Source: Candidatus Stahliibacteriota bacterium (GTDB taxonomy: Bacteria > Hydrothermota > Tepidihabitantia > SM23-42). Taken from it: a stretch of 64,000 nt of DNA. This document shows, piece by piece, positions 11,337 through 43,761 of this stretch (positions are counted from its first letter, which is position 1; each line of letters starts with the position of its first letter). The notes beneath the pieces were generated by a model. That model ran no database searches. It was given only the letters and a program-made list of their open reading frames with translations, and was not told the DNA's origin. The stretch spans positions 761-64,760 of the forward strand of contig JAUVZL010000007.1 in the NCBI GenBank assembly GCA_030602565.1, given 5' to 3'. Both the position numbers and the translations under genes were made by a program.

Positions 11337-11802
11337 TGATTGCAAGAAGAAGCCGGCAACGATATTCTTTAAGGAAGTATTACCAGGTAAGGTAACAGAG
11401 TTGCACCTTTGTGAGGCATGTGCACAAAAACGCGGTTTGATGATGGACAAGAAGCTGTCGCCCTTTGAGCTTCTCCAAAAGCTTTTACAAAAGAGAAGTG
11501 CTAAGGATGAACAGGTGATATGTCAGGTCTGCTATTTGTCGCTCGCAGAATTCAAACGCCAGGGCAGGTTTGGCTGCAGTCATTGCATAGAGCACTTCAG
11601 ACCGTACATTGAGAATTTGATAAAACAGATACACCAGTCCAGCAAACATGTTGGAAGACGACCAAAACAGGGTGCACGGAAGAGTTTCAAGGTCTTCAAG
11701 TTGCGTGAGGAATTGCGACGTGCTTTGGAAAAAGAAGCCTATGAGGACGCGGCTCAGATAAGGGATAGACTGAAGGATTTTGGAGTAGATGATGCTGAAT
11801 AA
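11326..11802 (+). CDS. mcsA: McsA-like protein (zinc-finger pairs plus UVR domain), activator of protein-arginine kinase
   Basis: CDDC..CEAC and CQVC..CSHC Cys pairs; C-terminal UvrB/C motif EAYEDAAQIRDRL. Confidence 0.7.
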   Translation: MLCDDCKKKPATIFFKEVLPGKVTELHLCEACAQKRGLMMDKKLSPFELLQKLLQKRSAKDEQVICQVCYLSLAEFKRQGRFGCSHCIEHFRPYIENLIKQIHQSSKHVGRRPKQGARKSFKVFKLREELRRALEKEAYEDAAQIRDRLKDFGVDDAE

Positions 11803-26032: not shown

Positions 26033-27067
26033 TTATGGATAATTTAGAAGGATAGCGTCAGCTTGATCTTCAGTGATAAGTTTTTCCTCAAGCAGTTTAG
26101 TAATGGATTGACGCATAGTAATCATCCCTTCCCTACCACCAGTCGCCATTACATTCCTCAAGAAATATGCTCCCCTCTTCCGAAATATATGCCGCGTCGC
26201 GCCAGTTGCAACCATAATCTCACAAGCCACGCGCTTTTCACCTGAGATTGTGGGAATAAGTTCTTGATGAATTATTGCTTGGACTGAATCTGCCAACAAA
26301 TACCGGATGTGCATTTCGAAATCAGTTGAACCATAGCTGACCAGGCGTTCGATAACTTTGTCGATCGATATTGTGTGCAAAGTCGAAAGGACCAGAATAC
26401 CAGTTGATGCAGCAATCAAGGCAATTTTAAACGTCTCAAAATCCCGCATTTCACCAATCGATATAACGTCCGGGTTCTGACGGAGCGCGGCTCGTAAACC
26501 TTGAGCAAAAGTTTTCGTGTCTCGACCAACTTCTCGCTGCCGAACTACACTCTTGATATTTCTATGTACATATTCAATCGGATCTTCTATAGTTACAATA
26601 TGTTTTTTATAATTTCGATTTATTTCATGGATCACAGCCGCCATTGTCGTGGTTTTCCCTTGACTTGTGGCACCGGTAATCAGAACAAGACCCTTAGTTA
26701 AGGTTGTGAACTTTTTTATAACTGATGGTAGATGTAATTCGTCAATGGTTTGAGGATTATCGATCAAAATCCTCAAGACCGATCCGATGTTGCCATCGTT
26801 AAAGCTAATATTAATTCGATACCGATTCTGATGGTATGCAAGCATAAAATCAATATCTAACTCATCCTCAAAAGTTTTTATCTGATCATTGTTCATTAAA
26901 TCGTAGGATAATTTTTTGGATACATCGGAAGTCAAAACGGTTTCATTCATTGGGATTAAATCATCACCAATCCTGAAAAGAATTGGCGCATGTGCACAAA
27001 TATGAATATCTGTCGCATTTTTCTGTTTTGCTATTTCGAATATTTTCTTAAGCTCATCGGATAACAT
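26033..27067 (-). CDS. pilT: type IV pilus twitching-motility ATPase PilT
   Basis: 344 aa; Walker A GATSQGKTTT, PilT-family Asp/His boxes, typical length. Confidence 0.85.
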   Translation of the reverse strand: MLSDELKKIFEIAKQKNATDIHICAHAPILFRIGDDLIPMNETVLTSDVSKKLSYDLMNNDQIKTFEDELDIDFMLAYHQNRYRINISFNDGNIGSVLRILIDNPQTIDELHLPSVIKKFTTLTKGLVLITGATSQGKTTTMAAVIHEINRNYKKHIVTIEDPIEYVHRNIKSVVRQREVGRDTKTFAQGLRAALRQNPDVISIGEMRDFETFKIALIAASTGILVLSTLHTISIDKVIERLVSYGSTDFEMHIRYLLADSVQAIIHQELIPTISGEKRVACEIMVATGATRHIFRKRGAYFLRNVMATGGREGMITMRQSITKLLEEKLITEDQADAILLNYP

Positions 27068-31486: not shown

Positions 31487-31576
31487 GTATCGCCTGTCCC
31501 GAGATGTCGAAGATCTCGCCTGTATCGAGTTTATCGAGATGAGTGAATCGAAGGGATTTGACCCCAATTTCTCTCC
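31487..31576. repeat. right-end fragment of composite dispersed repeat
   Basis: AGTATCGCCTGTCCCGAGATGTCGAAGATCTCG...GAATCGAAGGGATTTGACCCCAATTTCTCTCC. Confidence 0.8.
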
Positions 31577-31579
31577 TGG

Positions 31580-31702
31580 ATACCCTGGTCCCCTGATCAA
31601 GTCAGAGGATGCCAGGGTATGACCCCCGTACGATTAACATCCTACGGGACAGGCGGGATAAATAAAGCGAAAAGACTGAATACCCTGGTCAAGCCAGGGT
31701 AT
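31580..31702. repeat. two hairpins with identical 9-bp stems ATACCCTGG/CCAGGGTAT (31580-31620 and 31680-31702)
   Basis: second has loop TCAAG; both followed by TATGAC. Confidence 0.7.
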
Positions 31703-31889
31703 GACAATAAGTATGCTATAGGGTCAAATATGCCTTCGTTGGAAACTACGGCATACATGCCTACCCTCTCCCTCAATGGGAGAGGGAATTTTTTATTTGA
31801 CTTTTTATCGATATCCTATATAATCAAAACGCAATGAGATTTCAGGGGATAGGACACGAGAGCAGTGCAAGTGATTTATTCTTAATGAT

Positions 31890-32336
31890 ATGCAAAACTA
31901 TTTGCCTATGAAGTGGTCTGTCCATCCAGCAAAAGATAACTTTATAAAGACTATTTTCAGTCTTATTTTCATCGTTGGTTTCCTCGTGTTTGTATCAATT
32001 TTCTACGGAGTTTTCTGGGCTATCCTGGGTTCCATAATTCTTTTTGTCAGTTTGTATTCCTACTTTTTTCCATCGCATTATGAAGTGAATCAGGAGCAGG
32101 TGATTATCAGGAATATATTCCTTACCCAACGCAGGCGCCTGGCCGAGTTCAAGAAAGTCTACCGAGGTAAAAATGGGATACTACTCAGTCCGTTCAAAAG
32201 AAAAACCTTTTTGAACCAGTTTCGCGGTGTTTTTCTTTTGTTGCCGAGAGAACGACAGGAAATTGAGGACTACGTAAGGGGGCTGGTTGAAAGTGATGAA
32301 ATGACCGAGGACGAGCATTCGAAGAAAGATGGTTAG
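31890..32336 (+). CDS. membrane protein, hypothetical
   Basis: two long hydrophobic helices. Confidence 0.4.
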   Translation: MQNYLPMKWSVHPAKDNFIKTIFSLIFIVGFLVFVSIFYGVFWAILGSIILFVSLYSYFFPSHYEVNQEQVIIRNIFLTQRRRLAEFKKVYRGKNGILLSPFKRKTFLNQFRGVFLLLPRERQEIEDYVRGLVESDEMTEDEHSKKDG

Positions 32337-33849
32337 TTCAGATAAGTACGCTGTTGTCGACAAGGTGATTGCTCAGAGATACTCATCGGATTTCTCTATA
32401 CCTTATGAACTCGCACAAATCCTCGCGGCGCGTTTCCCGTCATACAGTGAAGCAAAAAGATTCTTATTTCCAAACGTTGCAAACCTCCATGACCCATGGT
32501 CAATCCCAGACATGGGAAAAGCAGTTGATGAAATTGTTGCTTCAATAAAGGGCAACGAATGTATCCTTATTTACTGCCACGATGATCCTGATGGCTACAC
32601 TTCAGCATCAATTATGTACAAGACTCTTATCGACCTAACAAAGGGGCAGGATGAGAGGATTTTTTTGTACCCGGTTGTGCGTGAAAAAGACGGTTACATC
32701 CTTAACCCGGATGTTCTGAAAAGATATCAAGAACAAGGGGTTAGACTTCTCATAACAGTTGATTTTGGTATCAGTAGTATGGAGAATTTTCGCATCGCCT
32801 CTGAACTCGGCCTGAAACTCGTTGTTTGTGATCATCACGAAACCAAGCTGTCTGATTTTCCTGCTCCAGCAGTAGATCCGAAACGGCCCGATTCACAATA
32901 TCCATTCCGCGAACTGGCGGGCGTTGGCGTTAGCTTCAAGCTTGCCCAGTGTCTTTATCAAAGAGCACTCAATCTAAATGCGGCTGAATTCTATTCGTTG
33001 AAAAGAGATTTTTTTCCATTATTAATGCTTGGTACTATATCAGATCGAGTTGTTCTATTGGATGAGAACCGCATATTTAGCTCCTATGGTTTGAGCGTTT
33101 TTAACAGATTCGATGAACCGTGGATAAAGTACTTCAAAAGAGATGACGAGGTCGATACGTTTTTGATAAGACGTGAGATCATCCCGACAATTGGTTCAGC
33201 CGCTTATGTTGATCCCAACCTCGGTGTAGAGGTGTTCTTATGCCGTGATTTTGAGCGCGTGTCGGAAATTCTTGGTGTTTTAGAGGATATGAACAAGGAA
33301 CGGAAGCGAGGTGTTGATGAGTTATTGAACGCGGTTATTTCAGCAGCAAAGTTCTTCCCCCAACTCGTTGTTTCAATAGTTCCCTTTTCAAAACAGCATT
33401 ATCTTGGTTCGGTTGCCGCACGCCTGAGAGCCCGGTATAAAAAAACCGCGGTCCTTATTGGGCTCAAAGATGCCAAGTGTTTTGGTGAACTGCGTAGTAA
33501 TACAGTCGATCTATTCAAGATGTTAGACCGTTTCAGGTCATTGTTTATAGACTTTGGTGGTCATTGCAAGGCGGCTGGGTTCACGATGTCTGAGACGAAC
33601 CTTGATAGGTTTGTTGACGGCGTGGTTGGATACATTTCAAACGACGATTTACCAGTGAAATTAGAAGAAGAACCAGGTTTGAATGCTCAACCCATTTTTT
33701 TTCTTGAACGTACAAAAATAAATTTATTGCAGCCGCTGACACCGTTTGGCGAAGGCAATCCGCCGCCTCTATTGACAGACCGCACAAATATCTATACAAT
33801 CGATGACAGGCTCAATATAATCGAGAAGGAGATCGATGGCAAACCTTAA
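32329..33849 (+). CDS. DHH-family phosphoesterase (RecJ-like, DHH + DHHA1)
   Basis: motifs YCHDDPDG, DFGISS, CDHHE (DHH). Confidence 0.7.
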   Translation: MVSSDKYAVVDKVIAQRYSSDFSIPYELAQILAARFPSYSEAKRFLFPNVANLHDPWSIPDMGKAVDEIVASIKGNECILIYCHDDPDGYTSASIMYKTLIDLTKGQDERIFLYPVVREKDGYILNPDVLKRYQEQGVRLLITVDFGISSMENFRIASELGLKLVVCDHHETKLSDFPAPAVDPKRPDSQYPFRELAGVGVSFKLAQCLYQRALNLNAAEFYSLKRDFFPLLMLGTISDRVVLLDENRIFSSYGLSVFNRFDEPWIKYFKRDDEVDTFLIRREIIPTIGSAAYVDPNLGVEVFLCRDFERVSEILGVLEDMNKERKRGVDELLNAVISAAKFFPQLVVSIVPFSKQHYLGSVAARLRARYKKTAVLIGLKDAKCFGELRSNTVDLFKMLDRFRSLFIDFGGHCKAAGFTMSETNLDRFVDGVVGYISNDDLPVKLEEEPGLNAQPIFFLERTKINLLQPLTPFGEGNPPPLLTDRTNIYTIDDRLNIIEKEIDGKP

Positions 33850-34432
33850 TTTTGCAAAGAAGGAACTCAATCTAAAAATTGTCTACTACGGAACAGGTCT
33901 TTGTGGCAAAACAACTAATTTACGTACGATATTTTCCGCGATGGGTCCAGCAAGACGGGGACAGATGATGAGTCTTGCTACAGAACTCGATCAGACACTA
34001 TTTTTTGATTTCTTGCCGGTAGATCTGGGAAGTGTTAAGGGCTGGAAACTACGACACCACCTTTACACTGTACCAGGTCAAATATACTACAATGTTTCAC
34101 GCAAGTTAGTTCTTAAGAACGTTGACGGTTTGGTCTTCGTAGTAGATTCCCAGGAAGAACGCGTCGACGAAAATATCGAAAGTCTCAACAACTTACATGA
34201 TAATCTGGGTAGTTATGGTTTGAACCTCAAGGATATCCCAATGGTTATTCAATATAATAAGCGGGATCTTCCCAATATTATACCGATAAGTGATCTGCAA
34301 TTGCATATTAACCGGAACGGATATACTTATTTTGAAAGCGTGGCAATCCGGGGCATAGGTGTTTTTGATACGCTCAAGTCAATCTGTCAGCTCACCGTAG
34401 TCAAGCAGATGGAAAGTTTGCCCCAGGTCTAA
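33836..34432 (+). CDS. mglA: Ras-like small GTPase MglA
   Basis: KIVYYGTGLCGKTTNL P-loop and TLFFDFLP...YTVPGQ switch regions match MglA almost residue-for-residue pattern. Confidence 0.85.
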   Translation: MANLNFAKKELNLKIVYYGTGLCGKTTNLRTIFSAMGPARRGQMMSLATELDQTLFFDFLPVDLGSVKGWKLRHHLYTVPGQIYYNVSRKLVLKNVDGLVFVVDSQEERVDENIESLNNLHDNLGSYGLNLKDIPMVIQYNKRDLPNIIPISDLQLHINRNGYTYFESVAIRGIGVFDTLKSICQLTVVKQMESLPQV

Positions 34433-34470
34433 GCAGCCCCTATTCATAGCCCATTCAACCTAAAAAACTA

Positions 34471-34499
34471 TTGACTTTGGTTTAGTTGTTTGCTATAAT
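34471..34499 (+). promoter_or_regulatory. sigma70 promoter TTGACT-17-TATAAT, -10 ends 9 nt before mglB ATG (leaderless candidate)
   Basis: read directly. Confidence 0.55.
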
Positions 34500-34508
34500 T
34501 TACGTACA

Positions 34509-34916
34509 ATGGATAGACAACGAACAATCATCCTAACCACTGAAAAAGTCAAAAAACTCGACAGTCTACTAGCTGATTTCTGCGAAGAGGCAAATATAGT
34601 ATGGGCGATTTTTACTACAGCATCAGGTCAGATTCTGGTGCAGAAAGGGTTTGTCCATTCCTTTGATGTGTTAGCGATATCTGCGTTGGCATGTGGTGTT
34701 TTCAATTCGACTATGGAACTAGCCCGGATAGTTGGAGAAAGGCATTTCAGTCAATTCCTCCAAGAAGGTAAAAAATTCAGCGTCTACTATATCGGGGTCC
34801 ACGAAGATTATTTATTGGTTTCTCTTTTTGACGACCGTACGCTACCTGGCGTCGTTAAGGTGGCGAGCAAGGATTTTTCAGTAGGTGCAGAGGAGGTTCT
34901 GAGAAACGGAAAATGA
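34509..34916 (+). CDS. mglB: roadblock/LC7-domain protein MglB (MglA GAP)
   Basis: 135 aa roadblock fold pattern; adjacent to mglA. Confidence 0.75.
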   Translation: MDRQRTIILTTEKVKKLDSLLADFCEEANIVWAIFTTASGQILVQKGFVHSFDVLAISALACGVFNSTMELARIVGERHFSQFLQEGKKFSVYYIGVHEDYLLVSLFDDRTLPGVVKVASKDFSVGAEEVLRNGK

Positions 34917-36871
34917 AACGCCGACCAGACTTCGAAAATTTCTATGTGTATGAAGGCAACAAGGTTGCTTATCTTGCTGCCCGGAAGATTATTGAGTTCC
35001 CAGGTGAACTCTTCAATCCATTATATGTATACGCCAATACTGGTTTGGGTAAGACTCATATCTTGTTAGCAGTACAAGCTGAATTGAACAAGAAATCCAC
35101 GACGAAGTTTTTCTCCGCCAAAGAATTCGAAAAAGCCCTGGATGAAACAAAAGTCTTTGACTGTTCGATTATTGTCGATGACCTACATGCGATATCAGAT
35201 ACATATCATGATGCACTTCTCGGAGTTATTGATACAGCATTAGCGAACAACCGACAGGTGTGCTTCTCTGGTAACGCGGCACCCCGGGATTTGAAGAATT
35301 TTGATCACCACCTAGTTTCCCGACTTGAAGGTGGTCTTATCTGCGACATATTACCGCCAAAGGAGATGGCACTCATCGATATGATCAAGAAGAAATCTGG
35401 TGAAGCCGGGGTTCTTTTGCCAGACGAGGTTGCCTTGGAACTTGCTCAGATATCGATTGGTTCAATACGCACGATAGAGGGCATGATCAATCGCATAGTT
35501 GCCTATTCATCGCTCGGAAACCTATCACTCGACCCTAACAGCGTTCGCATGATTTTGAAGGAGTTTTATCCCAAGGGTATTTATAGTCCAGTTTCTTCAC
35601 TCCTTGAGGAATTGAAGAAGAACGCGAGTGAAGTATTGGCTGATGTGTCAGAAAAACTCGATGTGCGCGAAGAGTACAAGGAGAAGATATACATCTGGAA
35701 GATGAAGGGGTTTGATACTACCGTTCTTAAACCTTTGCTGGAAGGCGACGTTGAAAAACTAAAAAAAACATATGATGAATTCATCAAGAAGGTGGAAAGG
35801 CTTATTGAACTCCAGAAGGAATTCGGTTCACTTAACACGAGCAATTTTCCTGACGAAGCCATGAAGATTGAATCGATGTTATTTTCTCCAGAACACGTCG
35901 ATGACATCGAAGAACTCATCGCGAAAATAAAACAGGTGGTTCGGGTTGCTCAAGCAAAGAGAGCATTTGAGGACTACCTGATTGGTGCGTGCAACAAGGA
36001 TGCATATGACCTGTACAAAGAGCAGGTCGTCAAGAATTTAGGGGAGAAATTTAATCCCTTTATGGTATTTGGTAAAGAAGGGACCGGTCGAACGAGGTTC
36101 TTGAAAGAAGTAAGGATTGATCTGGAATCAGTAGATAAGGTGGTTTGCTTTGTTGATCTTGACGTTGAAGATGCGGTACACCAGCTTGAGAAGACGAACA
36201 GCTTTGATGTTCTGATAATGGACAACTTCCATAATATTTTTTCTTATAACAAGGAACTTCGCAAGAAAGTATTTGATATTGTGAGAAATTTCCTTGGTTC
36301 TGGGAAGGCAGTAATATTCAGTTCAGCTACATTCTCTTCGGATGTAGTGCTGGAAGAAGACGAAAAATCGATTTTCGAACTCGGTATCGAGGTCGAGTTG
36401 AAAGAACCGAGCTCTGACGTAGTTGAGTCTTATATCAAGACAAAGCTGGAGCCTGATAAGGCTGAATCTTTGATTGGCAAAGGGTTGCCAGAATTTGCTG
36501 CTTTCTCCAAGATAGACGATTTTATCAGTGATATGGCAAAGGAAGGTATTGCTTCAGTTGCCGCGGTGCCTGTCAGCGAGGTATTTGAACGAACCGAAGC
36601 ACCTGCCGAGCAGGAAGTAGTGCCATTGGGTCTGCTCGGAGAGACAATTGAAGCAGGCGAGGTCGCCAGTGAAGAAACATCGGTTGTATCATTAGGTCTG
36701 CCTGGGGAAGAAGCAATCAGCAAACAAGAGGTTGAGGAAGAAAGACCACCAGAAAAACTAAAGGAAAAAACCGAGCCTCCAGTTGTTAAAGGCGAGCCAC
36801 TCAAGGAAATCAAAGAAGAAAGGTTTATAGTAAAAGAAATACGTGGTGAGTTGATTGAAGATAATTATTAA
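34913..36871 (+). CDS. protein with two tandem DnaA/Hda-like AAA+ modules and acidic Pro/Glu-rich C-terminal tail (no DnaA DNA-binding domain IV)
   Basis: module 1: NPLYVYANTGLGKTHILLA, IIVDDLHAI, SRLEGGL, IRTIEGMINRIVAY (DnaA boxes); module 2: NPFMVFGKEGTGRTRFL, VLIMDNFHNIF (degenerate Walker A). Confidence 0.55.
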   Translation: MKRRPDFENFYVYEGNKVAYLAARKIIEFPGELFNPLYVYANTGLGKTHILLAVQAELNKKSTTKFFSAKEFEKALDETKVFDCSIIVDDLHAISDTYHDALLGVIDTALANNRQVCFSGNAAPRDLKNFDHHLVSRLEGGLICDILPPKEMALIDMIKKKSGEAGVLLPDEVALELAQISIGSIRTIEGMINRIVAYSSLGNLSLDPNSVRMILKEFYPKGIYSPVSSLLEELKKNASEVLADVSEKLDVREEYKEKIYIWKMKGFDTTVLKPLLEGDVEKLKKTYDEFIKKVERLIELQKEFGSLNTSNFPDEAMKIESMLFSPEHVDDIEELIAKIKQVVRVAQAKRAFEDYLIGACNKDAYDLYKEQVVKNLGEKFNPFMVFGKEGTGRTRFLKEVRIDLESVDKVVCFVDLDVEDAVHQLEKTNSFDVLIMDNFHNIFSYNKELRKKVFDIVRNFLGSGKAVIFSSATFSSDVVLEEDEKSIFELGIEVELKEPSSDVVESYIKTKLEPDKAESLIGKGLPEFAAFSKIDDFISDMAKEGIASVAAVPVSEVFERTEAPAEQEVVPLGLLGETIEAGEVASEETSVVSLGLPGEEAISKQEVEEERPPEKLKEKTEPPVVKGEPLKEIKEERFIVKEIRGELIEDNY

Positions 36872-36885
36872 TAAGAGGGCAGTAA

Positions 36886-38475
36886 ATGGCAATTAAGGGA
36901 TCTTTGGCTGAGGCATCTTTGCCAGACGTTATTCAGCTGCTAACATATTCTGGTAAATCTGGTTGTCTGTCGGTGACCGACGGTCGAAACTTCGGCAATG
37001 TTTTTATCAAAGACGGCAGAATCATTTATGCCACAATATTGAACAAGAAACAGCGACTCGGCGACATTCTTTTGATGAAGAGCATAATTGATAATGAAAC
37101 CTTGTCGCGTGCCCTGGAAATACAGAAAACAGCTAAGAAAAAGAGACTGGGCGAAATATTCATTGAAATCGGCGCTTTGACAAAAGATGTATTAGAGAAA
37201 GAACTCAAGGGGCAGATCGAGCAAACGATTTTCACCATGTTGACGTGGGAAACCGGGTATTTCAATTTTGAGGCTGATCTGCTACCATCACATGAGGAAT
37301 ATACAGTACAGCTGTCAGCTCAAGAACTTCTGCTTGAAGGAGCAAGACGAATAGACGAATGGCGGCAAATTGAAAACAAGATACCGTCTTTTGAAACCGT
37401 GCTAGTTCACAAAGGAGATAGCGCAGACATACCACTGACCACTGAGGAGAAGCAGATCATTGAGTTGATTGATGGCGCGCGGAGTATTGACGATGTCTTG
37501 AAGTTGTCGAAGTTTGATTTCTTTGAGACATGCCGAACAATCTATGGATTACTTTCTGCTGGTTTATTGGAGAAACCTGAGAAACTCTTGAGGAGCAAGA
37601 AGACAACAGGGGACGTATCAGAATATAAGAACCTCGGGTTTGCTTTTTACAAAACGGAGATGTTTGACGAGGCTGAACGGGAATATAAAAAGGTTCTCGA
37701 TATTGATGACAAGAACGCGGAAGCACTATTCTATCTCGGACTTATTGAATTAACTCATGGTAGCTTTACCGACGCGCGAGACAATTTATTGAAAGCACTA
37801 GCTCAAGACAATCGGGCATCAGTGCTCACTAATTTGGGTTATGTCTACCTGAAGTTGGAATTGTATGATGAAGCAGTAGATTATCTGAATCAAGGGGTCG
37901 GGCTCGCACCAGATAACATGAGAGTAAAAACCAACCTGGCGATTGCCTTCTATGAAAAGGACGATTTTGATAAAGCCGCTGAGATTTTTAGGGAAATTAT
38001 TGATAAATCACCGGAAATTATAAGCCCATATATTTACTTACCGTTAGTTCATTTGAAGCAGGGGGATAGTGGGGCATCAGCCAAATTGCTGAATGATGCG
38101 ATCGACCGATTCCCCAGATTCTCGATTTTTAAGAACAACCTTGCGGTGCTCTACGAAAGCACTGATCGACCCGAAGATGCCGAGAAGCTCTATAGGCAAG
38201 CGCTTGAAACAGATCTTGGAGACAACGTGGTGTGCCGAAATCTTGCTGATTTTTATTACGAAGCTCAGATTTTAGGTGCGGCGAAAGAATTGTATGAGAA
38301 GATCCTTGATGAAAACAAAGATTGGCAGATTTTATTCAAGCTGGGTAATATTTCATTACGCCAGGGCGATGCGGAAAATGCGCTGAGTTTTTGGGAACGA
38401 GCTCAGCAACTGAATCCGTCAGAAGAGATTATTGCACGTAACATCGAAGTGTTGAAGAAGTCGGGTGGAAAATAG
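36886..38475 (+). CDS. DUF4388/PATAN-like N-terminal domain protein with C-terminal TPR repeats
   Basis: N-terminus SLPDVIQLLTYSGKSGCLSV...GRIIYA matches DUF4388 consensus; TPR region from about residue 250. Confidence 0.6.
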   Translation: MAIKGSLAEASLPDVIQLLTYSGKSGCLSVTDGRNFGNVFIKDGRIIYATILNKKQRLGDILLMKSIIDNETLSRALEIQKTAKKKRLGEIFIEIGALTKDVLEKELKGQIEQTIFTMLTWETGYFNFEADLLPSHEEYTVQLSAQELLLEGARRIDEWRQIENKIPSFETVLVHKGDSADIPLTTEEKQIIELIDGARSIDDVLKLSKFDFFETCRTIYGLLSAGLLEKPEKLLRSKKTTGDVSEYKNLGFAFYKTEMFDEAEREYKKVLDIDDKNAEALFYLGLIELTHGSFTDARDNLLKALAQDNRASVLTNLGYVYLKLELYDEAVDYLNQGVGLAPDNMRVKTNLAIAFYEKDDFDKAAEIFREIIDKSPEIISPYIYLPLVHLKQGDSGASAKLLNDAIDRFPRFSIFKNNLAVLYESTDRPEDAEKLYRQALETDLGDNVVCRNLADFYYEAQILGAAKELYEKILDENKDWQILFKLGNISLRQGDAENALSFWERAQQLNPSEEIIARNIEVLKKSGGK

Positions 38476-39259
38476 CTTTCAGAACCTAATCAGGTACATT
38501 GAACAGAAAACCCCGTTCAGATGTCAGAGTTATAAAGAAAAGCCACTCAAGAGACGTCTCAGAGTCAGAATGAGGGTTCTGAATATCAAAGATTTTGCAA
38601 AATATGAAACATACTTGAGAGACGATGACACTGAGCTGAAGAAATTAGTGGAAACGCTGACTATAAATCTGTCGTATTTCTTCCGAAACCCTGAAACTTT
38701 TTTCTTTTTGAAAGACTACATATTTCCAGTATTTAAAAGAAAAAAAGACGACCTTGTTTTCTGGAGCGCTGGATGTGCACAAGGTGAGGAACCGTATTCT
38801 CTTGCAATTATGGCGGCGGAGAGTAGGATGCTCGATAACGTGAAGATATTTGGTACTGATATAGACAGCAGGGTGTTGGATGTCGCACACCAGGGGTTGT
38901 ATTCAGACATTGCCTTTCAGTATACTCCAGACGATCTGCAGAAGAAATATTTCAAACGTGTTTCTGGTGGTCATTTGATCGATACCAGGTTGAGAGAGCG
39001 GGTTAGTTTTTTAAATGTTGATCTCTTTGCAACCCCTCCTTTCGGACCATGTGATTTGATAATGTGCCGAAATGTGATGATCTATCTTGACCGAAATGCC
39101 CAATCAACTATCCTTAAGAATTTCTACGATCATTTGAACCCTGATGGCTACTTGGTGATCGGTAAAGTGGAGTTGCTGATAGGCATCCCTGAGGTAGAGT
39201 TGTTCAACACAGTAAGCCGAGTTGAACACGTCTACCAGAGAAAAGAAATGCCTTTATAA
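38465..39259 (+). CDS. cheR: chemotaxis protein methyltransferase CheR
   Basis: FFRNPETF, WSAGCAQGEEPYSLAI, GTDIDSRVL motifs. Confidence 0.8.
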   Translation: MENSFQNLIRYIEQKTPFRCQSYKEKPLKRRLRVRMRVLNIKDFAKYETYLRDDDTELKKLVETLTINLSYFFRNPETFFFLKDYIFPVFKRKKDDLVFWSAGCAQGEEPYSLAIMAAESRMLDNVKIFGTDIDSRVLDVAHQGLYSDIAFQYTPDDLQKKYFKRVSGGHLIDTRLRERVSFLNVDLFATPPFGPCDLIMCRNVMIYLDRNAQSTILKNFYDHLNPDGYLVIGKVELLIGIPEVELFNTVSRVEHVYQRKEMPL

Positions 39260-39301
39260 GACAACTGGGAAAAGGATAGTGCAGGTTAGCTATTCGCAGA
39301 G

Positions 39302-39760
39302 ATGAACGAACAAAAGGTTGGTATCGGTGAAGTTCGGGTTGAACAAGGTAAGGTTAAACTCCTTGCTTTTGGCGTTGGTTCTTGTATTGTGATAATACTT
39401 TATGACGAAACGAAGAAAATTGGCGGACTTGCCCATTGCCTTTTACCGTTTGGCAGCGATATGAGTCTAAAATATCCGCGTGATGCGATAGCCGAAATGC
39501 TCAGACAGATGTCTCAAAAAGGGGCATCTAAAGGTCAGGTCATCGCCAAGATAGTGGGTGGTGCTACAATGTTCGAAGGTTTTGAACGACATGCAATTGG
39601 TAAGCGTAACGTAGTCAAAACCAGGGAGGAACTGAACAGCGTCGACATCCCAATAATTGCTGAAGACGTATTTGGTAACTGGGGTAGATCGATTTCATTC
39701 AATATTGATAATGGTGAAGTCAAGGTGAGGTCGTACCGACACGGTGAGAAAATTCTATGA
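39302..39760 (+). CDS. cheD: chemoreceptor glutamine deamidase CheD
   Basis: LLAFGVGSCIVIILYD...GGLAHCLLP pattern. Confidence 0.8.
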   Translation: MNEQKVGIGEVRVEQGKVKLLAFGVGSCIVIILYDETKKIGGLAHCLLPFGSDMSLKYPRDAIAEMLRQMSQKGASKGQVIAKIVGGATMFEGFERHAIGKRNVVKTREELNSVDIPIIAEDVFGNWGRSISFNIDNGEVKVRSYRHGEKIL

Positions 39761-39792
39761 AGATAATAGTCCGCAAAGCGAGGCGTGGTCCG

Positions 39793-40811
39793 TGAAGAAG
39801 AAAGTCCTCATTGTCGAAGATTCAATTTTAATGCAAAGGGTTATTGGCGACATTATTAGTTCGTCTGGCGATTTTGAGGTTTGCGGTTATGCCCGTGATA
39901 TAGTTGAAGGATGGGCGAAATTCAACAAGCGGCAGCCTGACCTCGTTACCCTCGATTATGAGCTGCCTGGTGAGAATGGTTTGGTATTACTGAGTAAGAT
40001 CATGAATTCAAAGCCAACACCTGTTCTAATGCTATCAGCACACACTAAAGACGGCGCTGAGTTGACGATCCGTTCATTAGAAATGGGGGCAGTGGATTTC
40101 TTCACAAAACCATCGGGTACTATTTCTATTGATTTATATAACTATAAGATGGACTTGATAGATAAACTGCAGATCGCGAGTCAAGCAAGGCTTCCCGAGG
40201 TCCTGGAGGGTAAGGTTCGGAAGAAAATATCGATATTCCGCGAGCTCTATGTTGGTATCGCTGCATCGACCGGCGGTGTGCGCGCGCTCAACTATATCAT
40301 CCCTTCGTTTCCGGCAAAGTGTGGTTTACGAATTATTGTGGTGCAGCATATGCCAAGGTATTTTACTGCCAGCCTTGCCTTGCACATGAATGAGCGAGCC
40401 AGTATGGTCGTCAGAGAAGCAGAAGATGGTGATCCAATCTCGGATGGAGAAGTTCTTGTTGCACCGGGTGGCCATCACATAAAGGTCGATGATGCCGGCA
40501 CCAAAGTTGTGCTGAGTGACGAGCCAGCAAGACACGGCGTTAAGCCATCGGCAGATATTTTATTTGAATCTATGGCAACCGTTTACAAAGATGCCGCAGT
40601 CGGTATTGTTTTGACTGGGATGGGACGTGACGGCGCCGCTGGCATAAAGGTAATCAAGAGACACGGTGGTGTTGTTATTGCTCAAGACCCGGATGACGCG
40701 ATTATCGGAGGGATGCCGCAATCAGCGATAAACACCGGTGTGGTCGATTATGTTCTGCCATTGAATTTAATCCCAGACAAGATTTTTGAGTATGTTGCGA
40801 AAAAGATATGA
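39793..40811 (+). CDS. cheB: protein-glutamate methylesterase/response regulator CheB
   Basis: receiver KVLIVEDS..D..LPG; methylesterase GASTGG, HMP motifs; GTG start chosen downstream of cheD stop. Confidence 0.8.
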
Positions 40812-41698
40812 AACAAGGGAATAAAGATCTACAGGAGCGGCTTACAGCACTGGAACATAGAGTCAAACACTTCAAACCTGAAGATGACAAAGCGATAAGG
40901 GACGAAATAAAAAAGATATACGTCGACATTGCGAATGGCCTTAAGATACTCACCGAAGCCCAGGAAAAAATAAGAAGCATTGCCCATGAGTTTAAGAAAA
41001 GTAAAACAACTTATACTGAAGTTGGTAAATTCTATTCTTTTGTGAAATCACAGACATCAGCTGAATTGGACCTGGCTACCTTGCTTGACCGCGCTTGGAA
41101 CCTCATAGTCATGGAGGACTTGGATGAAGCAATAAAGGTGCTTAAGAGAGTTCTTGATATTGAGCCAAAAAACATAAAAGGATTAGGTTTTATGTGCTTA
41201 GCTTTGATGGACAAGGATCAATATGATGATGCCATGATGCACCTACAAAAGGTTTTGGTTAATGAACCTGACAACCCTTTTGCGCTCAACAACCTTGGCT
41301 ATATATGCTATAAAAAAGGCATATGGGGTGAAGCAATAGAACATCTGGGTAAAGCCGCAAAGCAAACAAAAGATCGAATGGCGTCTCTGTATGCCAACTA
41401 CTACTTGGGTCTGGTCTATTACGAGCGGTCAATGCTCGACGATGCAGTAAGATTCTTCAAGAAGGCGCTCAAACTTGGGCCAAATTTACAGGAAGCTTAT
41501 TACTATCTGGGTTTGGCTGAGGTGAAGCGCTATGAGTTCAAGAATGCGATTGGCTATTTCGAGAAGTGTGTTCTTATCGACCGCCGGTCAAAATACAGCA
41601 AGCTCAGCAAGGCTGAATGCGATAAAATCAGACCCCTGATTGATACCCGCAAGAAACTGAAGGATTTAAGTAGCCGGCAATCAAATGACGATGAGTAG
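40808..41698 (+). CDS. TPR-repeat protein
   Basis: several 34-aa TPR units (ALNNLGYICYKKG etc.). Confidence 0.6.
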   Translation: MKQGNKDLQERLTALEHRVKHFKPEDDKAIRDEIKKIYVDIANGLKILTEAQEKIRSIAHEFKKSKTTYTEVGKFYSFVKSQTSAELDLATLLDRAWNLIVMEDLDEAIKVLKRVLDIEPKNIKGLGFMCLALMDKDQYDDAMMHLQKVLVNEPDNPFALNNLGYICYKKGIWGEAIEHLGKAAKQTKDRMASLYANYYLGLVYYERSMLDDAVRFFKKALKLGPNLQEAYYYLGLAEVKRYEFKNAIGYFEKCVLIDRRSKYSKLSKAECDKIRPLIDTRKKLKDLSSRQSNDDE

Positions 41699-42488
41699 AA
41701 TGATACAAAAGCGTGAACTCAAACGCTGTTTAGGTGATATCATCGATCTAGCGATAAAAGTAGGTGCCTACATATTCAAGAGTGCTGAGAAAAAGAAGCA
41801 GCTTCGTTACAAGGGAGAAATTGATATTGTGACGCAATTCGACAAAAAATCACAGGATATGATTGTTGCGGAACTGGCAAAGAAATATCCACGATATGGT
41901 ATCCTTAGTGAAGAGGGGATAAGGTGTAATGCCGATGCTTTGCTAAAGTGGATAATCGATCCCCTGGATGGTACAACGAATTTTGCTCACGGATTACCGA
42001 TCTGGACAATTTCCATTGCCCTGGAAGTAGAAGGAGATATTTTACTCGGTGTTGTCTATGACCCGACGCGTCAGGAAATGTTTTTTGCAATCAAAGGTAA
42101 TGGTGCATTCAGGGATCGGAAGAGAATAAAAGTGTCAGGTGTTCGGAAGTTAGACCGTGCCCTCCTTGTTACTGGTTTTCCTTACGACATAAGAACGTCA
42201 AGTGAAAACAACTTGAGTCACTTTGCCGATTTTGCGGTACGTGCCCAGGCCGTGAGGCGTTTGGGCTCTGCTGCATTAGATCTGTGCTACACTGCGTGCG
42301 GTAGATTCGACGGTTATTGGGAACTTAAACTTTCACCATGGGATCAAGCAGCAGGTTCGTTGATTCTCAAGGAGGCAGGTGGTAGAATTACTGATTTCAA
42401 GGGTAACAAATTTGATATCTATGGCGACGAAGTCCTTGGAACAAACCGTCTAATTCACCATCAAATGATGAAAGTGTTGAGATTGTAG
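41685..42488 (+). CDS. inositol monophosphatase family protein (SuhB-like)
   Basis: LSEEG, WIIDPLDGTTNF, WDQAAG motifs. Confidence 0.8.
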   Translation: MTMSRMIQKRELKRCLGDIIDLAIKVGAYIFKSAEKKKQLRYKGEIDIVTQFDKKSQDMIVAELAKKYPRYGILSEEGIRCNADALLKWIIDPLDGTTNFAHGLPIWTISIALEVEGDILLGVVYDPTRQEMFFAIKGNGAFRDRKRIKVSGVRKLDRALLVTGFPYDIRTSSENNLSHFADFAVRAQAVRRLGSAALDLCYTACGRFDGYWELKLSPWDQAAGSLILKEAGGRITDFKGNKFDIYGDEVLGTNRLIHHQMMKVLRL

Positions 42489-42501: not shown

Positions 42502-43761
42502 TTAAAATGCATAGCTGAACACTAACCCTGCAGCATATTGCCGTCCGGTAAGAAAATAACCATCATAAATTTGTTCTGTTTCATCAGTTGCATTGTGCAC
42601 GGTTAGAAACACCTTGAATATCTTGTACCTACAAGCGACACTTGGGTTTATCATAAACAACGGGGCTAGGTCATTCACTACTCCATCTCGCGCCGCATAA
42701 TGTACTGCTTCCGCCGCGATCACGATGGGGCCTACCCCTATACTTATCGTATCACACGCGGTATGTCGGGGGACAAAGGCGATTATTGTATCCGACCAAT
42801 TATAAGTAACACACAAGGAGTTTTCAAAATGCATATTTCTGTATGTGAAATCGTCTTTTATTGTTACGCAGATATTTAATTCCTCAACATCCCCTTTTGT
42901 TTTTATAATAAAACCTTGGCCGGGTGCGAGTTTTTCGCGCCAACTATTATAAGACCCGATAATTTGAAAGCTATGGTGATAAAGATCTAGTTTGAGATCA
43001 AGAGCAATACCGGTTTTGAGACTTTCACTGGGCATCGATATTCTGTATTGAAGCGGCAGTGCTGGATCGAACTTCTGTTTTAGCGTCCGTATCAAAGGAC
43101 CAGTCCTGAAGCTTGCGCCGACTTTCAATCTTGGATTGAGGTATTGTATGTTGAGTGTCGGTGATGGGAAGCCTTGAGATAACCGCGAACCGACCGAGAG
43201 ATGGAGGTTACTTATGTGTAATTTGCCAGTCAGGTTCGGTTCGAGTTTTTTCCCTGAATAAATACCCCTGATTTCAAAATGAGGCAGGTAGATAACACGA
43301 TCAAAGATAAGGTTTACAGCAGCAGTGTATTCTTGGTAATTCAGGCTATTGATCTGCCACAAATCAGCGTTGGTGGTAGCCAGGATGATTGCCCACGGTA
43401 GGTTCACTGCCATATCAAGGTTAGGGCAGAGCAAGCGGTATTCATCATCCCTTTTATGGAAAAGGCCGTTAACTGATGGTTTCAGAAAGAGATGGGCTAG
43501 TGGTATTGAGTAGGAAAGTGAACCACTTGCGCTTATTATTGAATCCCAATCCTCACGTTGATCGTACAAGGCAGAAAGCTTGAAATTCTTGAACACAATA
43601 TCACACAAACCGCCAAAATACTGACCTCCATAAGAACCGAGCTCGACACTTTTCTCGGCTGGTTCTAACCACAGGTGCGGTTCTGGAAATATTACCTGGG
43701 ATAGGTCAGGGATCGGCGGCAGTGAATCAACGCTGACAAGGAACAATAGGAGTCCTATCAT
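42502..43761 (-). CDS. outer-membrane beta-barrel-like hypothetical protein
   Basis: signal peptide; alternating-hydrophobic strands; C-terminal ...FSYAF. Confidence 0.4.
   Translation of the reverse strand: MIGLLLFLVSVDSLPPIPDLSQVIFPEPHLWLEPAEKSVELGSYGGQYFGGLCDIVFKNFKLSALYDQREDWDSIISASGSLSYSIPLAHLFLKPSVNGLFHKRDDEYRLLCPNLDMAVNLPWAIILATTNADLWQINSLNYQEYTAAVNLIFDRVIYLPHFEIRGIYSGKKLEPNLTGKLHISNLHLSVGSRLSQGFPSPTLNIQYLNPRLKVGASFRTGPLIRTLKQKFDPALPLQYRISMPSESLKTGIALDLKLDLYHHSFQIIGSYNSWREKLAPGQGFIIKTKGDVEELNICVTIKDDFTYRNMHFENSLCVTYNWSDTIIAFVPRHTACDTISIGVGPIVIAAEAVHYAARDGVVNDLAPLFMINPSVACRYKIFKVFLTVHNATDETEQIYDGYFLTGRQYAAGLVFSYAF

What the first reader, a model, noticed from the sequence alone, without database searches (positions are those of the whole stretch)
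33836..41698. mglA-mglB followed by tandem-DnaA-like ATPase, PATAN/DUF4388-TPR protein and an incomplete che set (cheR-cheD-cheB, no cheA/cheW/MCP)
MglA/MglB polarity GTPase pairs are known to sit near PATAN-domain proteins, but here the module additionally contains a protein made of two DnaA/Hda-like AAA+ modules and a receptor-modification trio without kinase, coupler or receptor. All are co-directional with short or overlapping gaps (38465/38475 overlap, cheD-cheB, cheB-TPR 4-nt overlap), suggesting one operon. This is a plausible uncharacterised variant of the Mgl polarity/motility switch in a T9SS-bearing lineage.
Basis: partly seen in the sequence, partly recalled or inferred. Interest (0 to 1): 0.75.

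Follow-up and report, generated by a model that had tools for sequence, protein, structure and literature searches.

The report
Reduced chemosensory–MglAB polarity operon with DnaA-like ATPase
This is a real, widely conserved operon of uncultured WOR-3 bacteria. It joins a Ras-like polarity switch (MglA/MglB), a new ATPase derived from the replication initiator DnaA, a predicted c-di-GMP-binding adaptor and three chemoreceptor-modifying enzymes. It is a cut-down version of a roughly 20-gene chemotaxis-plus-polarity cluster found intact in sister phyla.

Summary
The gene calls are confirmed. The run is MglA (60% identical to Myxococcus MglA), MglB, a 652-aa protein with two DnaA-domain-III-like AAA+ modules, a PATAN/DUF4388-TPR protein, CheR, CheD, CheB and a TPR protein. 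All are co-directional with short gaps or overlaps. The 64-kb window holds no CheA, CheW or MCP.

The cluster is not unique to this contig.
- mglB, the DnaA-like gene and the PATAN-TPR gene form a nearly invariant core in 33 WOR-3/Stahlbacteria/TA06 species genomes.
- cheR-cheD-cheB-TPR follows in 22 of 28 informative loci.
- mglA is adjacent in only about 13.

In five loci of other lineages (Edwardsbacteria, UBP2 and unclassified; protein hits add TA06 and Zixibacteria) the same core sits inside a che system. Where the contig reaches, the order is cheW-cheY-cheA-cheC … mglB-mglA-DnaA-like-PATAN-cheR-cheD-cheB-TPR-cheW-mcp-mcp. The window therefore carries a reduced derivative.

New details:
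- WOR-3 MglA has Gln in place of the intrinsic arginine finger Arg53.
- The PATAN domain carries a tandem MshEN-type c-di-GMP motif.
- The second AAA+ module has a non-canonical Walker B (Asp-Asn).
- The DnaA-like family keeps a conserved acidic C-terminal peptide.

The proposed mechanism is polarity control of type IV pili. It is inferred, not shown. Whether cheA and MCP genes lie elsewhere in WOR-3 genomes could not be tested.

The parts
31764..31824 (+). Terminator-like hairpin with a T-run (31764-31786), followed by a sigma-70-like promoter (TTGACT-16-TATAAT, 31797-31824). Likely start of the co-directional run.
   Evidence: consensus scan only
31890..32336 (+). 148-aa small protein with no Pfam match and a hydrophobic N-terminal half. 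Conserved upstream neighbour in the Stahlbacteria-type loci that also keep mglA.
32329..33849 (+). RecJ-like DHH/DHHA1 phosphoesterase (506 aa). Overlaps the mglA start by 14 nt. Adjacent to mglA only in the subset of loci that keep mglA.
   Evidence: Pfam DHH E 9e-18 and DHHA1. TIGR00644 recJ scores 270 bits, below its 397 cut-off. Synteny.
33836..34432 (+). MglA-family Ras-like GTPase (198 aa) with Gln53 in place of the intrinsic arginine finger. P-loop, Thr54, the TLFFDFLP strand and Gln82 are kept.
34471..34499 (+). Promoter-like site (TTGACT-17-TATAAT with extended TG) in the 76-nt mglA-mglB gap. A similar site precedes mglB in L007, which has no mglA.
   Evidence: consensus match only
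34509..34916 (+). MglB-like Roadblock/LC7 protein (135 aa). Its stop overlaps the start of the DnaA-like gene (ATGA) in 30 of 32 WOR-3 loci.
34913..36871 (+). Tandem DnaA-domain-III-like AAA+ protein (652 aa).
- Module 1, residues 1-215: intact Walker A (GLGKT), Walker B (DD), box VII Arg and sensor II Arg.
- Residues 226-244: highly conserved short helix.
- Residues 250-343: helical middle domain.
- Module 2, residues 350-545: Walker A GTGRT and Walker B Asp-Asn.
- Residues 546-652: disordered acidic tail with two PLGLPGEE-like repeats, ending in the conserved peptide GELIEDNY.
- No DnaA domain I or IV.
36886..38475 (+). PATAN (DUF4388) plus TPR protein (529 aa). Predicted c-di-GMP receptor and adaptor.
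37042..37212 (+). Insert within the PATAN domain (aa 53-109) carrying two 24-residue MshEN-type c-di-GMP-binding motifs: RLGDILLMKSIIDNETLSRALEIQ and RLGEIFIEIGALTKDVLEKELKGQ.
   Evidence: NF053729 scores 40.9 bits against a 38 cut-off. Close variants of the tandem motif are present in all 37 orthologues. The insert aligns to MshE 5htl and PilF 6f8l.
38465..39259 (+). CheR methyltransferase (264 aa, GTG start). Closest solved structure is B. subtilis CheR.
39302..39760 (+). CheD deamidase (152 aa). Catalytic Cys (GVGSC) and His (AHCLLP) are kept.
39744..40811 (+). CheB with REC and methylesterase domains (355 aa from the GTG start; alternative ATG at 39792). The phospho-acceptor Asp and the Ser-His-Asp triad motifs are kept.
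   Evidence: (NF001965: 340 bits against a 293 cut-off)
40808..41698 (+). Cytoplasmic TPR protein (296 aa) with an N-terminal segment that reads as coiled-coil-like. It travels with cheR-cheD-cheB: present in 21 of 22 loci that have them, and absent from all 6 that lack them.
41685..42488 (+). Inositol-monophosphatase-family gene overlapping the TPR gene by 14 nt. It is the constant downstream neighbour whether or not cheRDB is present, so it is probably a housekeeping boundary gene.

Best explanation
The region is one operon-like run in a WOR-3 (Stahlbacteria-like) bacterium. It encodes a reduced form of a chemosensory-plus-polarity signalling cluster.

Shown here:
- The gene identities.
- The tight, often overlapping gene junctions.
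- Conservation of the mglB / DnaA-like ATPase / PATAN-TPR core across WOR-3.
- An expanded cluster in other candidate phyla, in which the same core is flanked by cheW-cheY-cheA-cheC on one side and cheW-mcp-mcp on the other.

Inferred working model:
1. A Che-type pathway with methylation-based adaptation (CheR, CheB, CheD and the companion TPR protein) feeds into a Ras-like GTPase/Roadblock polarity switch (MglA/MglB).
2. The PATAN-TPR protein is the adaptor to the motility machine. By analogy with cyanobacterial PATAN regulators, that machine is most likely the type IV pilus motor.
3. The PATAN-TPR protein adds a c-di-GMP input through its MshEN-type insert.
4. The DnaA-derived AAA+ protein has lost both DNA-binding and helicase-loading domains. 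It is proposed to be an ATP-dependent self-assembling switch or scaffold that works with MglB.
5. Its conserved acidic C-terminal peptide is proposed to dock on the neighbouring TPR proteins.

In WOR-3 the module has been rewired:
- The kinase and receptor genes have left the locus. They may be elsewhere or lost; this is unknown.
- mglA has lost its arginine finger or has left the locus.
- The ATPase has gained a second AAA+ module that probably cannot hydrolyse ATP.
For: Gene identities.

Conservation:
- 33 WOR-3/Stahlbacteria/TA06 loci share the core.
- The mglB stop and the ATPase start overlap by 4 nt in 30 of 32 loci. The PATAN-cheR overlap is also conserved.

Complete cluster with CheA, CheC, CheY, CheW and MCPs: L036, L041 and L042. 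L035 and L037 hold the same core with downstream CheW and MCP, but their upstream side is cut off. Their CheR/CheD/CheB/TPR are 37-44% identical to the window's and lie in the same order.

Enzymes intact: the CheB Asp and Ser/His/Asp motifs and the CheD Cys/His motifs are kept in nearly all WOR-3 orthologues, apart from a few pattern misses.

c-di-GMP motif.

ATPase anatomy:
- Invariant or near-invariant Walker A, Walker B, box VII Arg and sensor II Arg in module 1.
- Asp-Asn Walker B in module 2.
- AlphaFold model and DnaA domain III as the best fold match.
- No Pfam or NCBIfam hit for DnaA_N or Bac_DnaA_C.
- A conserved C-terminal peptide across WOR-3, the short forms and the Gemmatimonadota forms, always beside TPR proteins.

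Link to type IV pili:
- PATAN domains bind PilB1 and PilC in Synechocystis (bioRxiv 10.1101/2021.06.11.447907).
- pilT lies in the window.
- The first cultured WOR-3 strain has pili and showed no motility under the microscope (PMC12285271).

The Frz chemosensory system controls MglA/MglB in M. xanthus, but the genes are unlinked there (PMC4316618).
Against: - No experiment exists for any protein of this cluster. Every functional link is by homology or gene context.
- The pilus link is by analogy. No pilB, pilC or pilM-Q gene is in the cluster.
- mglA is missing from about 18 WOR-3 loci and cleanly deleted in L007. The GTPase is therefore not obligatory at the locus.
- Gln53 in MglA predicts poor GTP hydrolysis, which sits badly with a cycling switch.
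- Six WOR-3 loci lack cheRDB altogether.
- The role of the DnaA-like protein is the weakest step. TPR docking and MglB coupling are inferences from adjacency and from a conserved peptide.
- Whether a phosphodonor for CheB and a methylation substrate exist in WOR-3 genomes is unknown.
Confidence: 0.5

Rival explanations
1. Split but ordinary chemotaxis system. WOR-3 genomes encode CheA, CheW, CheY and MCPs elsewhere. CheR/CheD/CheB here are the normal adaptation enzymes for those receptors. They remain next to the mgl core only because of shared ancestry with the full cluster.
For: - CheB keeps its REC phospho-acceptor Asp, which implies a kinase.
- The enzymes are intact in nearly all orthologues.
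- The ancestral-type cluster has the MCPs right next to them.
- A WOR-3-related 'Pyropristinus' assembly was reported to have cheB, cheY and cheC without flagellar genes (PMC4791363).
Against: - No CheA, CheW or MCP lies in the 64-kb window or within 10 kb of any of 33 WOR-3 loci.
- A search with the cluster-type CheA returned about 40 orthologues from TA06, Zixibacteria and Edwardsbacteria, then generic CheAs. None was named WOR-3. This is weak evidence because many hits are unnamed.
Confidence: 0.45
2. Orphan modification enzymes with a non-receptor substrate. After loss of the MCPs, CheR/CheD/CheB (with the companion TPR protein) methylate, demethylate or deamidate another protein of the module, for example the DnaA-like ATPase or a TPR protein.
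For: - Catalytic residues are retained in 22 species without a nearby receptor.
- The DnaA-like protein has a near-invariant short helix with an Glu-Glu pair (SSLLEELKKNAS, residues 228-239) that the model predicts with low confidence. This is typical of a partner-binding segment.
Against: - A scan of all cluster proteins found no conserved MCP-type methylation consensus outside CheR itself.
- The Glu-Glu helix is also kept in loci that lack cheRDB, since the protein aligns throughout.
- No non-MCP substrate of this trio is established, to my knowledge.
Confidence: 0.1
3. The output is not the type IV pilus. The module instead controls T9SS-linked gliding, secretion or cell-division placement.
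For: - T9SS-type C-terminal sorting domains occur on two window proteins.
- MglA controls gliding as well as pili in Myxococcus (established knowledge).
- The Gemmatimonadota relative of the ATPase sits next to two bactofilin genes.
Against: - No T9SS or gliding-motor gene lies in or next to any of the loci examined.
- The only tested partners of PATAN domains are pilus motor proteins.
- pilT is present in the window.
Confidence: 0.15
4. The DnaA-like protein is an Hda-type regulator of replication initiation, and its place beside mglB is incidental.
For: Sequence and fold are closest to DnaA domain III and Hda.
Against: - Adjacency to mglB or mglA and to the PATAN-TPR gene is conserved across WOR-3 and at least four other lineages, with a 4-nt start/stop overlap.
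- TIGR03420 Hda scores 103 bits, below its 194.8 cut-off.
- The N-terminus (MKRRPDFENF...) has no clamp-binding QL[SP]LPL-type motif. That motif is recalled from memory.
- The family has its own middle domain and C-terminal peptide.
- Canonical DnaA proteins with domains I and IV are separate, much weaker hits.
Confidence: 0.05

Closest known systems
Myxococcus xanthus Frz chemosensory system acting on the MglA/MglB(/RomR) polarity module
   Same: A Che-type pathway with CheR and CheB adaptation is combined with a Ras-like GTPase and its Roadblock partner. MglA is about 60% identical. TPR proteins accompany the methyltransferase. In Myxococcus the TPR is fused to the CheR homologue FrzF; this is from my own knowledge.
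   Different: - In Myxococcus the frz and mgl genes are unlinked (PMC4316618). Here they share one cluster.
- No RomR, RomX, FrzZ or FrzX was seen in the cluster.
- A DnaA-derived ATPase and PATAN-TPR proteins are core parts here.
- WOR-3 MglA lacks Arg53.
- The WOR-3 locus lacks the kinase, coupler and receptor.
Cyanobacterial Tax/Pix chemotaxis-like systems with PatA-type (PATAN-REC) regulators
   Same: A PATAN domain is associated with a chemosensory gene cluster. There the PATAN domain is the output domain that binds the pilus motor proteins PilB1 and PilC.
   Different: Here PATAN is fused to TPR repeats, not to a receiver domain. It carries an MshEN-type insert, and it is linked with MglA/MglB and an AAA+ ATPase.
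DnaA domain III / Hda
   Same: Module 1 has the DnaA-type AAA+ fold: TM-score 0.78 normalised to B. subtilis DnaA domain III, rmsd 3.1 Å over 235 aligned columns. Walker A, Walker B, box VII Arg and sensor II Arg are kept.
   Different: No domain I and no DNA-binding domain IV. The module is duplicated in WOR-3 and Gemmatimonadota. The family has its own helical middle domain, a disordered acidic tail and a conserved C-terminal peptide. Its gene context is signalling, not replication.
MshEN c-di-GMP receptor domain of MshE/PilB-type ATPases (Wang et al. 2016, PMC5013675)
   Same: Two 24-residue motifs that fit the published pattern and align to MshE 5htl and PilF 6f8l. NCBIfam NF053729 scores above its cut-off.
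   Different: Here the motif pair is an insert inside a PATAN domain, not the N-terminus of a secretion ATPase. In most orthologues the small residue at position 10 of the first motif is replaced by Lys or Gln. Co-annotation of DUF4388 with GspE_N has been noted in passing, so the combination itself is not new.
Actinobacterial conservons (CvnA-D)
   Same: An operon that hard-wires an MglA-like GTPase and a Roadblock protein to a sensor kinase (PMC4316618).
   Different: The kinase type is different (a membrane histidine kinase, not CheA/MCP). There are no PATAN, AAA+ or Che adaptation enzymes.

Membership tests
MglA (Ras-like polarity GTPase) | G domain closely similar to characterised MglA, with the P-loop GxGxxGKT and switch II TVPGQ (catalytic Gln82) | tested here: met
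   E 5e-68 and about 60% identity to 6hjh, 5ymx and 3t12. GTGLCGKT and TVPGQ are present.
MglA (Ras-like polarity GTPase) | Intrinsic arginine finger Arg53, described as 'absolutely conserved in MglA proteins' (Miertzschke 2011) | tested here: not met
   Gln53 in the window protein and in all 12 other WOR-3 orthologues examined. Arg is kept in L035-L037. Of the 150 best family representatives, 149 have Arg. Literature. It is therefore filed as an arginine-finger-less variant of the MglA family, not as a typical MglA.
MglA (Ras-like polarity GTPase) | Encoded next to a cognate Roadblock/LC7 MglB | tested here: met
   mglB starts 76 nt downstream.
MglB (Roadblock/LC7 GAP) | Sequence similarity to characterised MglB | tested here: inconclusive
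   phmmer E 4e-10 to M. xanthus MglB 6h5b. The NCBIfam equivalog NF052242 scores 39 bits against a 200 cut-off, and Pfam Robl_LC7 is not reported. GAP activity is not testable here.
DnaA (replication initiator) | AAA+ domain III | tested here: met
   PF00308 E 1e-35. Foldseek hit to 8bv3 at E 1.6e-14.
DnaA (replication initiator) | C-terminal DNA-binding domain IV (Bac_DnaA_C) and N-terminal domain I | tested here: not met
   No PF08299 or PF11638 hit. TIGR00362 scores 178 bits against a 344 cut-off. The C-terminal 107 residues are predicted disordered. Not a DnaA.
Hda | Single domain III protein scoring above the family threshold, with an N-terminal clamp-binding motif | tested here: not met
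   TIGR03420 scores 103 bits against a 194.8 cut-off. The protein has two modules plus extra domains. No QL[SP]LPL-like N-terminus (the motif is recalled from memory).
PATAN / DUF4388 | Pfam PF14332 above the gathering score | tested here: met
   118.7 bits against a 25 cut-off. Residues 4-160 cover profile positions 1-122, which implies an insert of about 38 residues.
MshEN-type c-di-GMP receptor | Two tandem 24-residue motifs [RKPN]hGxxhhxx[GAS]hhxxxxhxxxhxx[Q...] | tested here: met
   Both motifs fit in the window protein. NF053729 scores 40.9 bits against a 38 cut-off. Alignment to 5htl and 6f8l.
MshEN-type c-di-GMP receptor | Binds c-di-GMP | not testable with these tools
   Needs ITC, DRaCALA or a similar assay.
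CheR / CheD / CheB adaptation enzymes | Family models above threshold and catalytic residues present | tested here: met
   Pfam scores: CheR 166 bits, CheD 88 bits, CheB_methylest 207 bits. NF001965 CheB scores 340 bits against a 293 cut-off. CheB Asp and Ser/His/Asp, and CheD Cys/His, are present.
Complete chemosensory pathway | CheA kinase, CheW coupler and MCP receptor encoded with the adaptation enzymes | tested here: not met
   None in the window or within 10 kb of any WOR-3 locus. All are present in the expanded clusters L036, L041 and L042; L035 and L037 hold CheW and MCP, with the upstream side cut off. Presence elsewhere in WOR-3 genomes was not tested.

The most novel reading that the evidence does not exclude
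In WOR-3 the DnaA-derived AAA+ protein has become the nucleotide switch of the polarity module. MglB now regulates an ATPase rather than, or as well as, a GTPase. MglA is dispensable (arginine finger lost, gene missing from most loci). The orphan CheR/CheD/CheB tune this switch by modifying a non-receptor protein. That would be a replication-initiator fold recruited as a cell-polarity switch, and the first non-MCP target of the chemotaxis adaptation enzymes.
Probability: 0.1. Interest if true: 0.85.

Novelty: new variant of a known kind. Interest (0 to 1): 0.6.

Why it matters
In Myxococcus, how a chemosensory pathway talks to the MglA/MglB polarity switch had to be worked out genetically, because the genes are scattered. 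Here several uncultured phyla hard-wire both systems into one cluster. The extra core parts (a DnaA-derived ATPase, PATAN-TPR adaptors with a c-di-GMP motif, additional Roadblock proteins) are candidate missing links between signal, second messenger and cell pole.

The WOR-3 form adds a natural experiment. It has an MglA without its arginine finger, or no adjacent mglA at all, while mglB stays translationally coupled to an ATPase.

The work also defines a new protein family in which the replication-initiator AAA+ fold is used outside replication.

Tried and rejected
- I looked for CheA, CheW, CheC and MCP in the window and in all fetched loci by tblastn with the L036 proteins. None was found in any WOR-3 locus.
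- I searched the large protein database with the cluster-type CheA to find WOR-3 orthologues. None was named WOR-3, but many hits are unnamed, so this is inconclusive.
- I scanned MglA, MglB, the ATPase, PATAN-TPR, the TPR protein and the flanking proteins for a conserved MCP-type methylation consensus. The only hit was a chance match inside CheR, so there is no support for an in-cluster substrate.
- I looked for an mglA remnant in L007 between the recJ-like gene and mglB. None was found.
- WOR-3 genome papers and their supplements gave no chemotaxis or motility gene tables. Only the pili of strain sy37 and partial che sets in 'Pyropristinus' were reported.
- The MshEN paper does not mention PATAN. 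The co-annotation of DUF4388 with GspE_N is noted only in the Synechocystis PATAN preprint.
- The Foldseek search with the full model is dominated by the AAA+ modules, so the fold of the middle domain (residues 250-343) remains unassigned.
- Reading the ATPase as Hda or DnaA was rejected on domain content and thresholds.

Full report
**Observation**

The + strand between 31890 and 42488 carries eleven co-directional ORFs with short gaps or overlaps.
- 33836-34432 is an MglA-family GTPase. It matches the M. xanthus and T. thermophilus MglA structures at E 5e-68 and about 60% identity.
- 34509-34916 is an MglB-like Roadblock protein, E 4e-10 to M. xanthus MglB.
- 34913-36871 matches the DnaA ATPase domain twice (PF00308 E 1e-35). 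Its best solved relatives are DnaA domain III and Hda.
- 36886-38475 is a PATAN/DUF4388 domain followed by TPR repeats.
- 38465-39259, 39302-39760 and 39744-40811 are CheR, CheD and CheB with a REC domain.
- 40808-41698 is a TPR protein.

Pfam scans of essentially all other ORFs of 110 aa or more in the 64-kb window found no CheA, CheW or MCP. The stated overlaps are real. The cheD/cheB overlap depends on using the GTG start at 39744 rather than the ATG at 39792.

A consensus scan places a terminator-like hairpin and a promoter-like site just before the first gene of the run. It also places further promoter-like sites before mglA and before mglB. These are pattern matches only.

**Origin and conservation**

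The identical contig occurs in a public metagenome assembly. Homologues of the tandem DnaA-like protein form a tight family of about 100 sequence clusters. Nearly all named ones come from candidate division WOR-3 or TA06. Scores then drop sharply to ordinary DnaA proteins.

A scan of one genome per species returned 33 loci from WOR-3, 'Candidatus Stahlbacteria' and TA06 (L002-L034), plus three loci from other lineages with the same core (L035-L037) and two weaker, unrelated hits. The Stahlbacteria loci are closest to the window, at up to 90% identity. Synteny mapping shows:
- The DnaA-like gene is followed by the PATAN-TPR gene in every locus that extends far enough.
- It is preceded by mglB in 32 of 33 loci, with the mglB stop overlapping the ATPase start (ATGA) in 30 of 32.
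- cheR-cheD-cheB follows in 22 loci. In six loci (L005, L019, L031-L034) it is absent, and the PATAN-TPR gene runs straight into the inositol-monophosphatase gene.
- The last TPR gene is present in 21 of the 22 loci with cheRDB and in none without. It therefore belongs to the che sub-module.
- mglA, with the recJ-like gene and the small upstream gene, is adjacent in only about 13 loci including the window. About 18 loci start with mglB and have no mglA within up to 10 kb upstream.
- In L007 mglA is cleanly missing between the recJ-like gene and mglB.

The conserved core is therefore mglB, the ATPase gene and the PATAN-TPR gene, rather than mglA-mglB.

**The fuller relative**

Three loci from other lineages share a shorter, single-module form of the ATPase. 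They are L035 (Edwardsbacteria), L036 (unclassified) and L037 (UBP2). Two long metagenomic contigs found through that short form (L041, L042) do the same.

Where the contig extends far enough (L036, L041, L042), the order is (cheW-)cheY-cheA-cheC, a roughly 895-aa TPR protein, a PATAN-TPR protein, a TPR-Roadblock protein, a Roadblock protein, mglB, mglA, the DnaA-like gene, a second PATAN-TPR gene, cheR, cheD, cheB, a TPR gene, cheW, two mcp genes and a Ser/Thr kinase. L035 and L037 hold the same core with the downstream cheW and mcp genes, but their upstream side is cut off. About 40 clusters of this short form exist, with names pointing to TA06, Edwardsbacteria and Zixibacteria. A similar number of matching CheA proteins exists.

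The window's CheR, CheD, CheB and TPR proteins are 37-44% identical to those of these clusters and lie in the same order. The simplest reading is that the WOR-3 locus is a reduced derivative of such a cluster. The direction of change is an inference from distribution, not from a rooted tree.

A third form occurs in Gemmatimonadota. It has two modules, both with canonical Walker motifs. It lies next to a large TPR protein and two bactofilin genes, with no mgl or che genes.

**Anatomy of the ATPase**

Alignments of 19 and of 96 family members and an AlphaFold model (mean pLDDT 78) give this layout:
- Module 1 (residues 1-215) has invariant or near-invariant Walker A (GxGKT), Walker B (Asp-Asp), box VII Ser-Arg and a sensor II Arg. 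It is probably an active, oligomerising DnaA-type ATPase.
- A near-invariant short helix follows (YSPVSSLLEELKKNAS). It is predicted with low confidence, as is typical for partner-binding segments.
- A conserved helical middle domain (residues 250-343) contains the signature EYKEKIYIW-MKGFD.
- Module 2 (residues 350-545) has a Walker B that reads Asp-Asn across the WOR-3 family. Its Walker A lysine is replaced by arginine in the window's subclade. It probably binds but does not hydrolyse nucleotide.
- The last 107 residues are disordered and acidic. They hold one to three PLGLPGEE-like repeats and end in a conserved peptide.

The terminal peptide reads GELIE(E/D)NY in WOR-3, WPxxEDRLMEEF in the short forms and DWPDxxDRLIEExR in Gemmatimonadota.

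There is no DnaA domain I or IV, and the DnaA and Hda family thresholds are not reached. This is not a replication initiator or an Hda. All three forms sit beside TPR proteins, and TPR domains commonly bind acidic C-terminal peptides (established knowledge). Docking of the tail on the TPR partners is therefore a reasonable but untested idea.

**MglA without its arginine finger**

The window MglA and all 12 other WOR-3 orthologues read ELDQ53TLFFDFLP, where M. xanthus has ETDR53TLFFDFLP. The MglA proteins of the full clusters keep Arg.

Arg53 is the intrinsic arginine finger. It is described as absolutely conserved in MglA proteins, and its mutation nearly abolishes intrinsic and MglB-stimulated hydrolysis (PMC3199381). 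Among the 150 best representatives of the family in a library of 1.8 billion proteins, 149 have Arg, one has Val and none has Gln.

The WOR-3 protein is otherwise highly conserved, at 82-98% identity within the group. It is predicted to be a slow or GTP-locked MglA, or to need an arginine supplied in trans.

**c-di-GMP input**

The PATAN domain is interrupted by an insert (aa 53-109) holding two 24-residue motifs that fit the published MshEN pattern.
- The NCBIfam c-di-GMP motif model scores just above its cut-off.
- The insert aligns to the MshEN domain of V. cholerae MshE and to PilB/PilF N-termini.
- Close variants of the tandem motif are present in all 37 orthologues examined, although the first copy often deviates at position 10.
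- Co-annotation of DUF4388 with GspE_N has been noted in passing.

Binding itself is untested.

**How it probably works**

Four things are established elsewhere:
- Frz-type chemosensory signalling controls MglA/MglB polarity in Myxococcus.
- PATAN domains are output domains that bind the pilus motor proteins PilB1 and PilC in Synechocystis.
- MshEN motifs bind c-di-GMP.
- CheR, CheB and CheD modify receptors (established knowledge).

Put together with the gene linkage shown here, the most likely reading has three parts. A chemosensory pathway sets the state of an MglA/MglB-type polarity switch. PATAN-TPR adaptors integrate c-di-GMP and connect the switch to the type IV pilus machine. The DnaA-derived ATPase acts as an ATP-dependent assembly or switch component tied to MglB.

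A pilT gene lies 7 kb upstream in the window. The one cultured WOR-3 strain is piliated and showed no motility under the microscope.

In WOR-3 the system has been pared down and rewired. I put about 0.5 on this overall model. Gene identities and evolutionary relationships are near-certain, and the role of the ATPase is the weakest link.

**Open point**

It remains open whether WOR-3 genomes hold cheA, cheW and MCP genes elsewhere.
- For: CheB keeps its phospho-acceptor, and CheB and CheD keep their catalytic residues in nearly all orthologues. This argues for a working pathway.
- Against: nothing was found nearby, and no WOR-3-named CheA appeared among the closest relatives of the cluster-type CheA.
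- An in-cluster methylation substrate with the MCP consensus was looked for and not found.

**Novelty and verdict**

The MglA/MglB-PATAN association was already known (Makarova 2006; Wuichet and Søgaard-Andersen 2015). As far as the searchable literature shows, four things have not been described:
- The physical fusion of a che system with the mgl module.
- The DnaA-derived ATPase family as a core member of that module.
- The reduced WOR-3 form.
- The arginine-finger-less MglA.

I class this as a new variant of a known kind. It would interest specialists in bacterial polarity and chemosensory evolution. The caveat is that all carriers but possibly one are uncultured.

Noticed in passing
window 33836-34432 (codon 53, about 33992-33994): MglA has Gln where the family's intrinsic arginine finger (Arg53) sits. 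The same holds in all 12 other WOR-3 orthologues, but not in the MglA of the full che-mgl clusters. Of the 150 best family representatives, 149 have Arg.
   Followed up: yes
window 26033-27067 (-): PilT-type pilus retraction ATPase (E 4e-69 to P. aeruginosa PilT), 7 kb upstream of the operon. It is the only motility-machine gene seen in the window.
   Followed up: partly
window 54871-59427 (+) and 13731-15218 (+): A 1518-aa subtilase with a Por_Secre_tail/CHU_C type IX secretion sorting domain, and a 495-aa protein with a FlgD_ig-type C-terminal domain. These are the only support in the window for calling the lineage T9SS-bearing.
   Followed up: no
L040 (Gemmatimonadota contig RFFQ01000173.1), 3765-12094: A tandem DnaA-like ATPase in which both modules have canonical Walker motifs and the C-terminus reads DWPDxxDRLIEExR in most family members (VDWNKPPTRLDMEL in this one). 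It lies directly after an 867-aa TPR protein and a few genes after two bactofilin genes. There are no mgl or che genes nearby.
   Followed up: partly
L007 2137-2604: mglA is cleanly absent between the recJ-like gene and mglB, with no remnant by tblastn. The promoter-like site before mglB is kept.
   Followed up: yes
L015 5235-9477 (-): In WOR-3 loci without mglA, the genes upstream of mglB are divergently oriented. They encode a HEAT-repeat protein and an HD_5 (HD-GYP-like) phosphohydrolase, a possible c-di-GMP link.
   Followed up: no
window 31560-31790: An intergenic stretch with repeated ATACCCTGG...CCAGGGTAT inverted repeats and a strong hairpin with a T-run, just upstream of the operon. 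It could be a REP-like element or stacked terminators.
   Followed up: no
window 11326-12841 (+): A UVR-motif protein followed by an ATP:guanido phosphotransferase. This resembles a McsA/McsB-like protein arginine kinase pair.
   Followed up: no
window 7013-7801 (-): A 262-aa class III adenylate/guanylate cyclase domain protein. It is another nucleotide second-messenger gene in the window.
   Followed up: no
window 52061-52861 (+): An AbiEi-type antitoxin domain protein, possibly half of a type IV toxin-antitoxin pair.
   Followed up: no
window 42502-43761 (-): A 419-aa protein with no Pfam match that ends in an aromatic residue (…VFSYAF). It looks like an outer-membrane beta-barrel. It is convergent with the operon and syntenic in most WOR-3 loci.
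   Followed up: no
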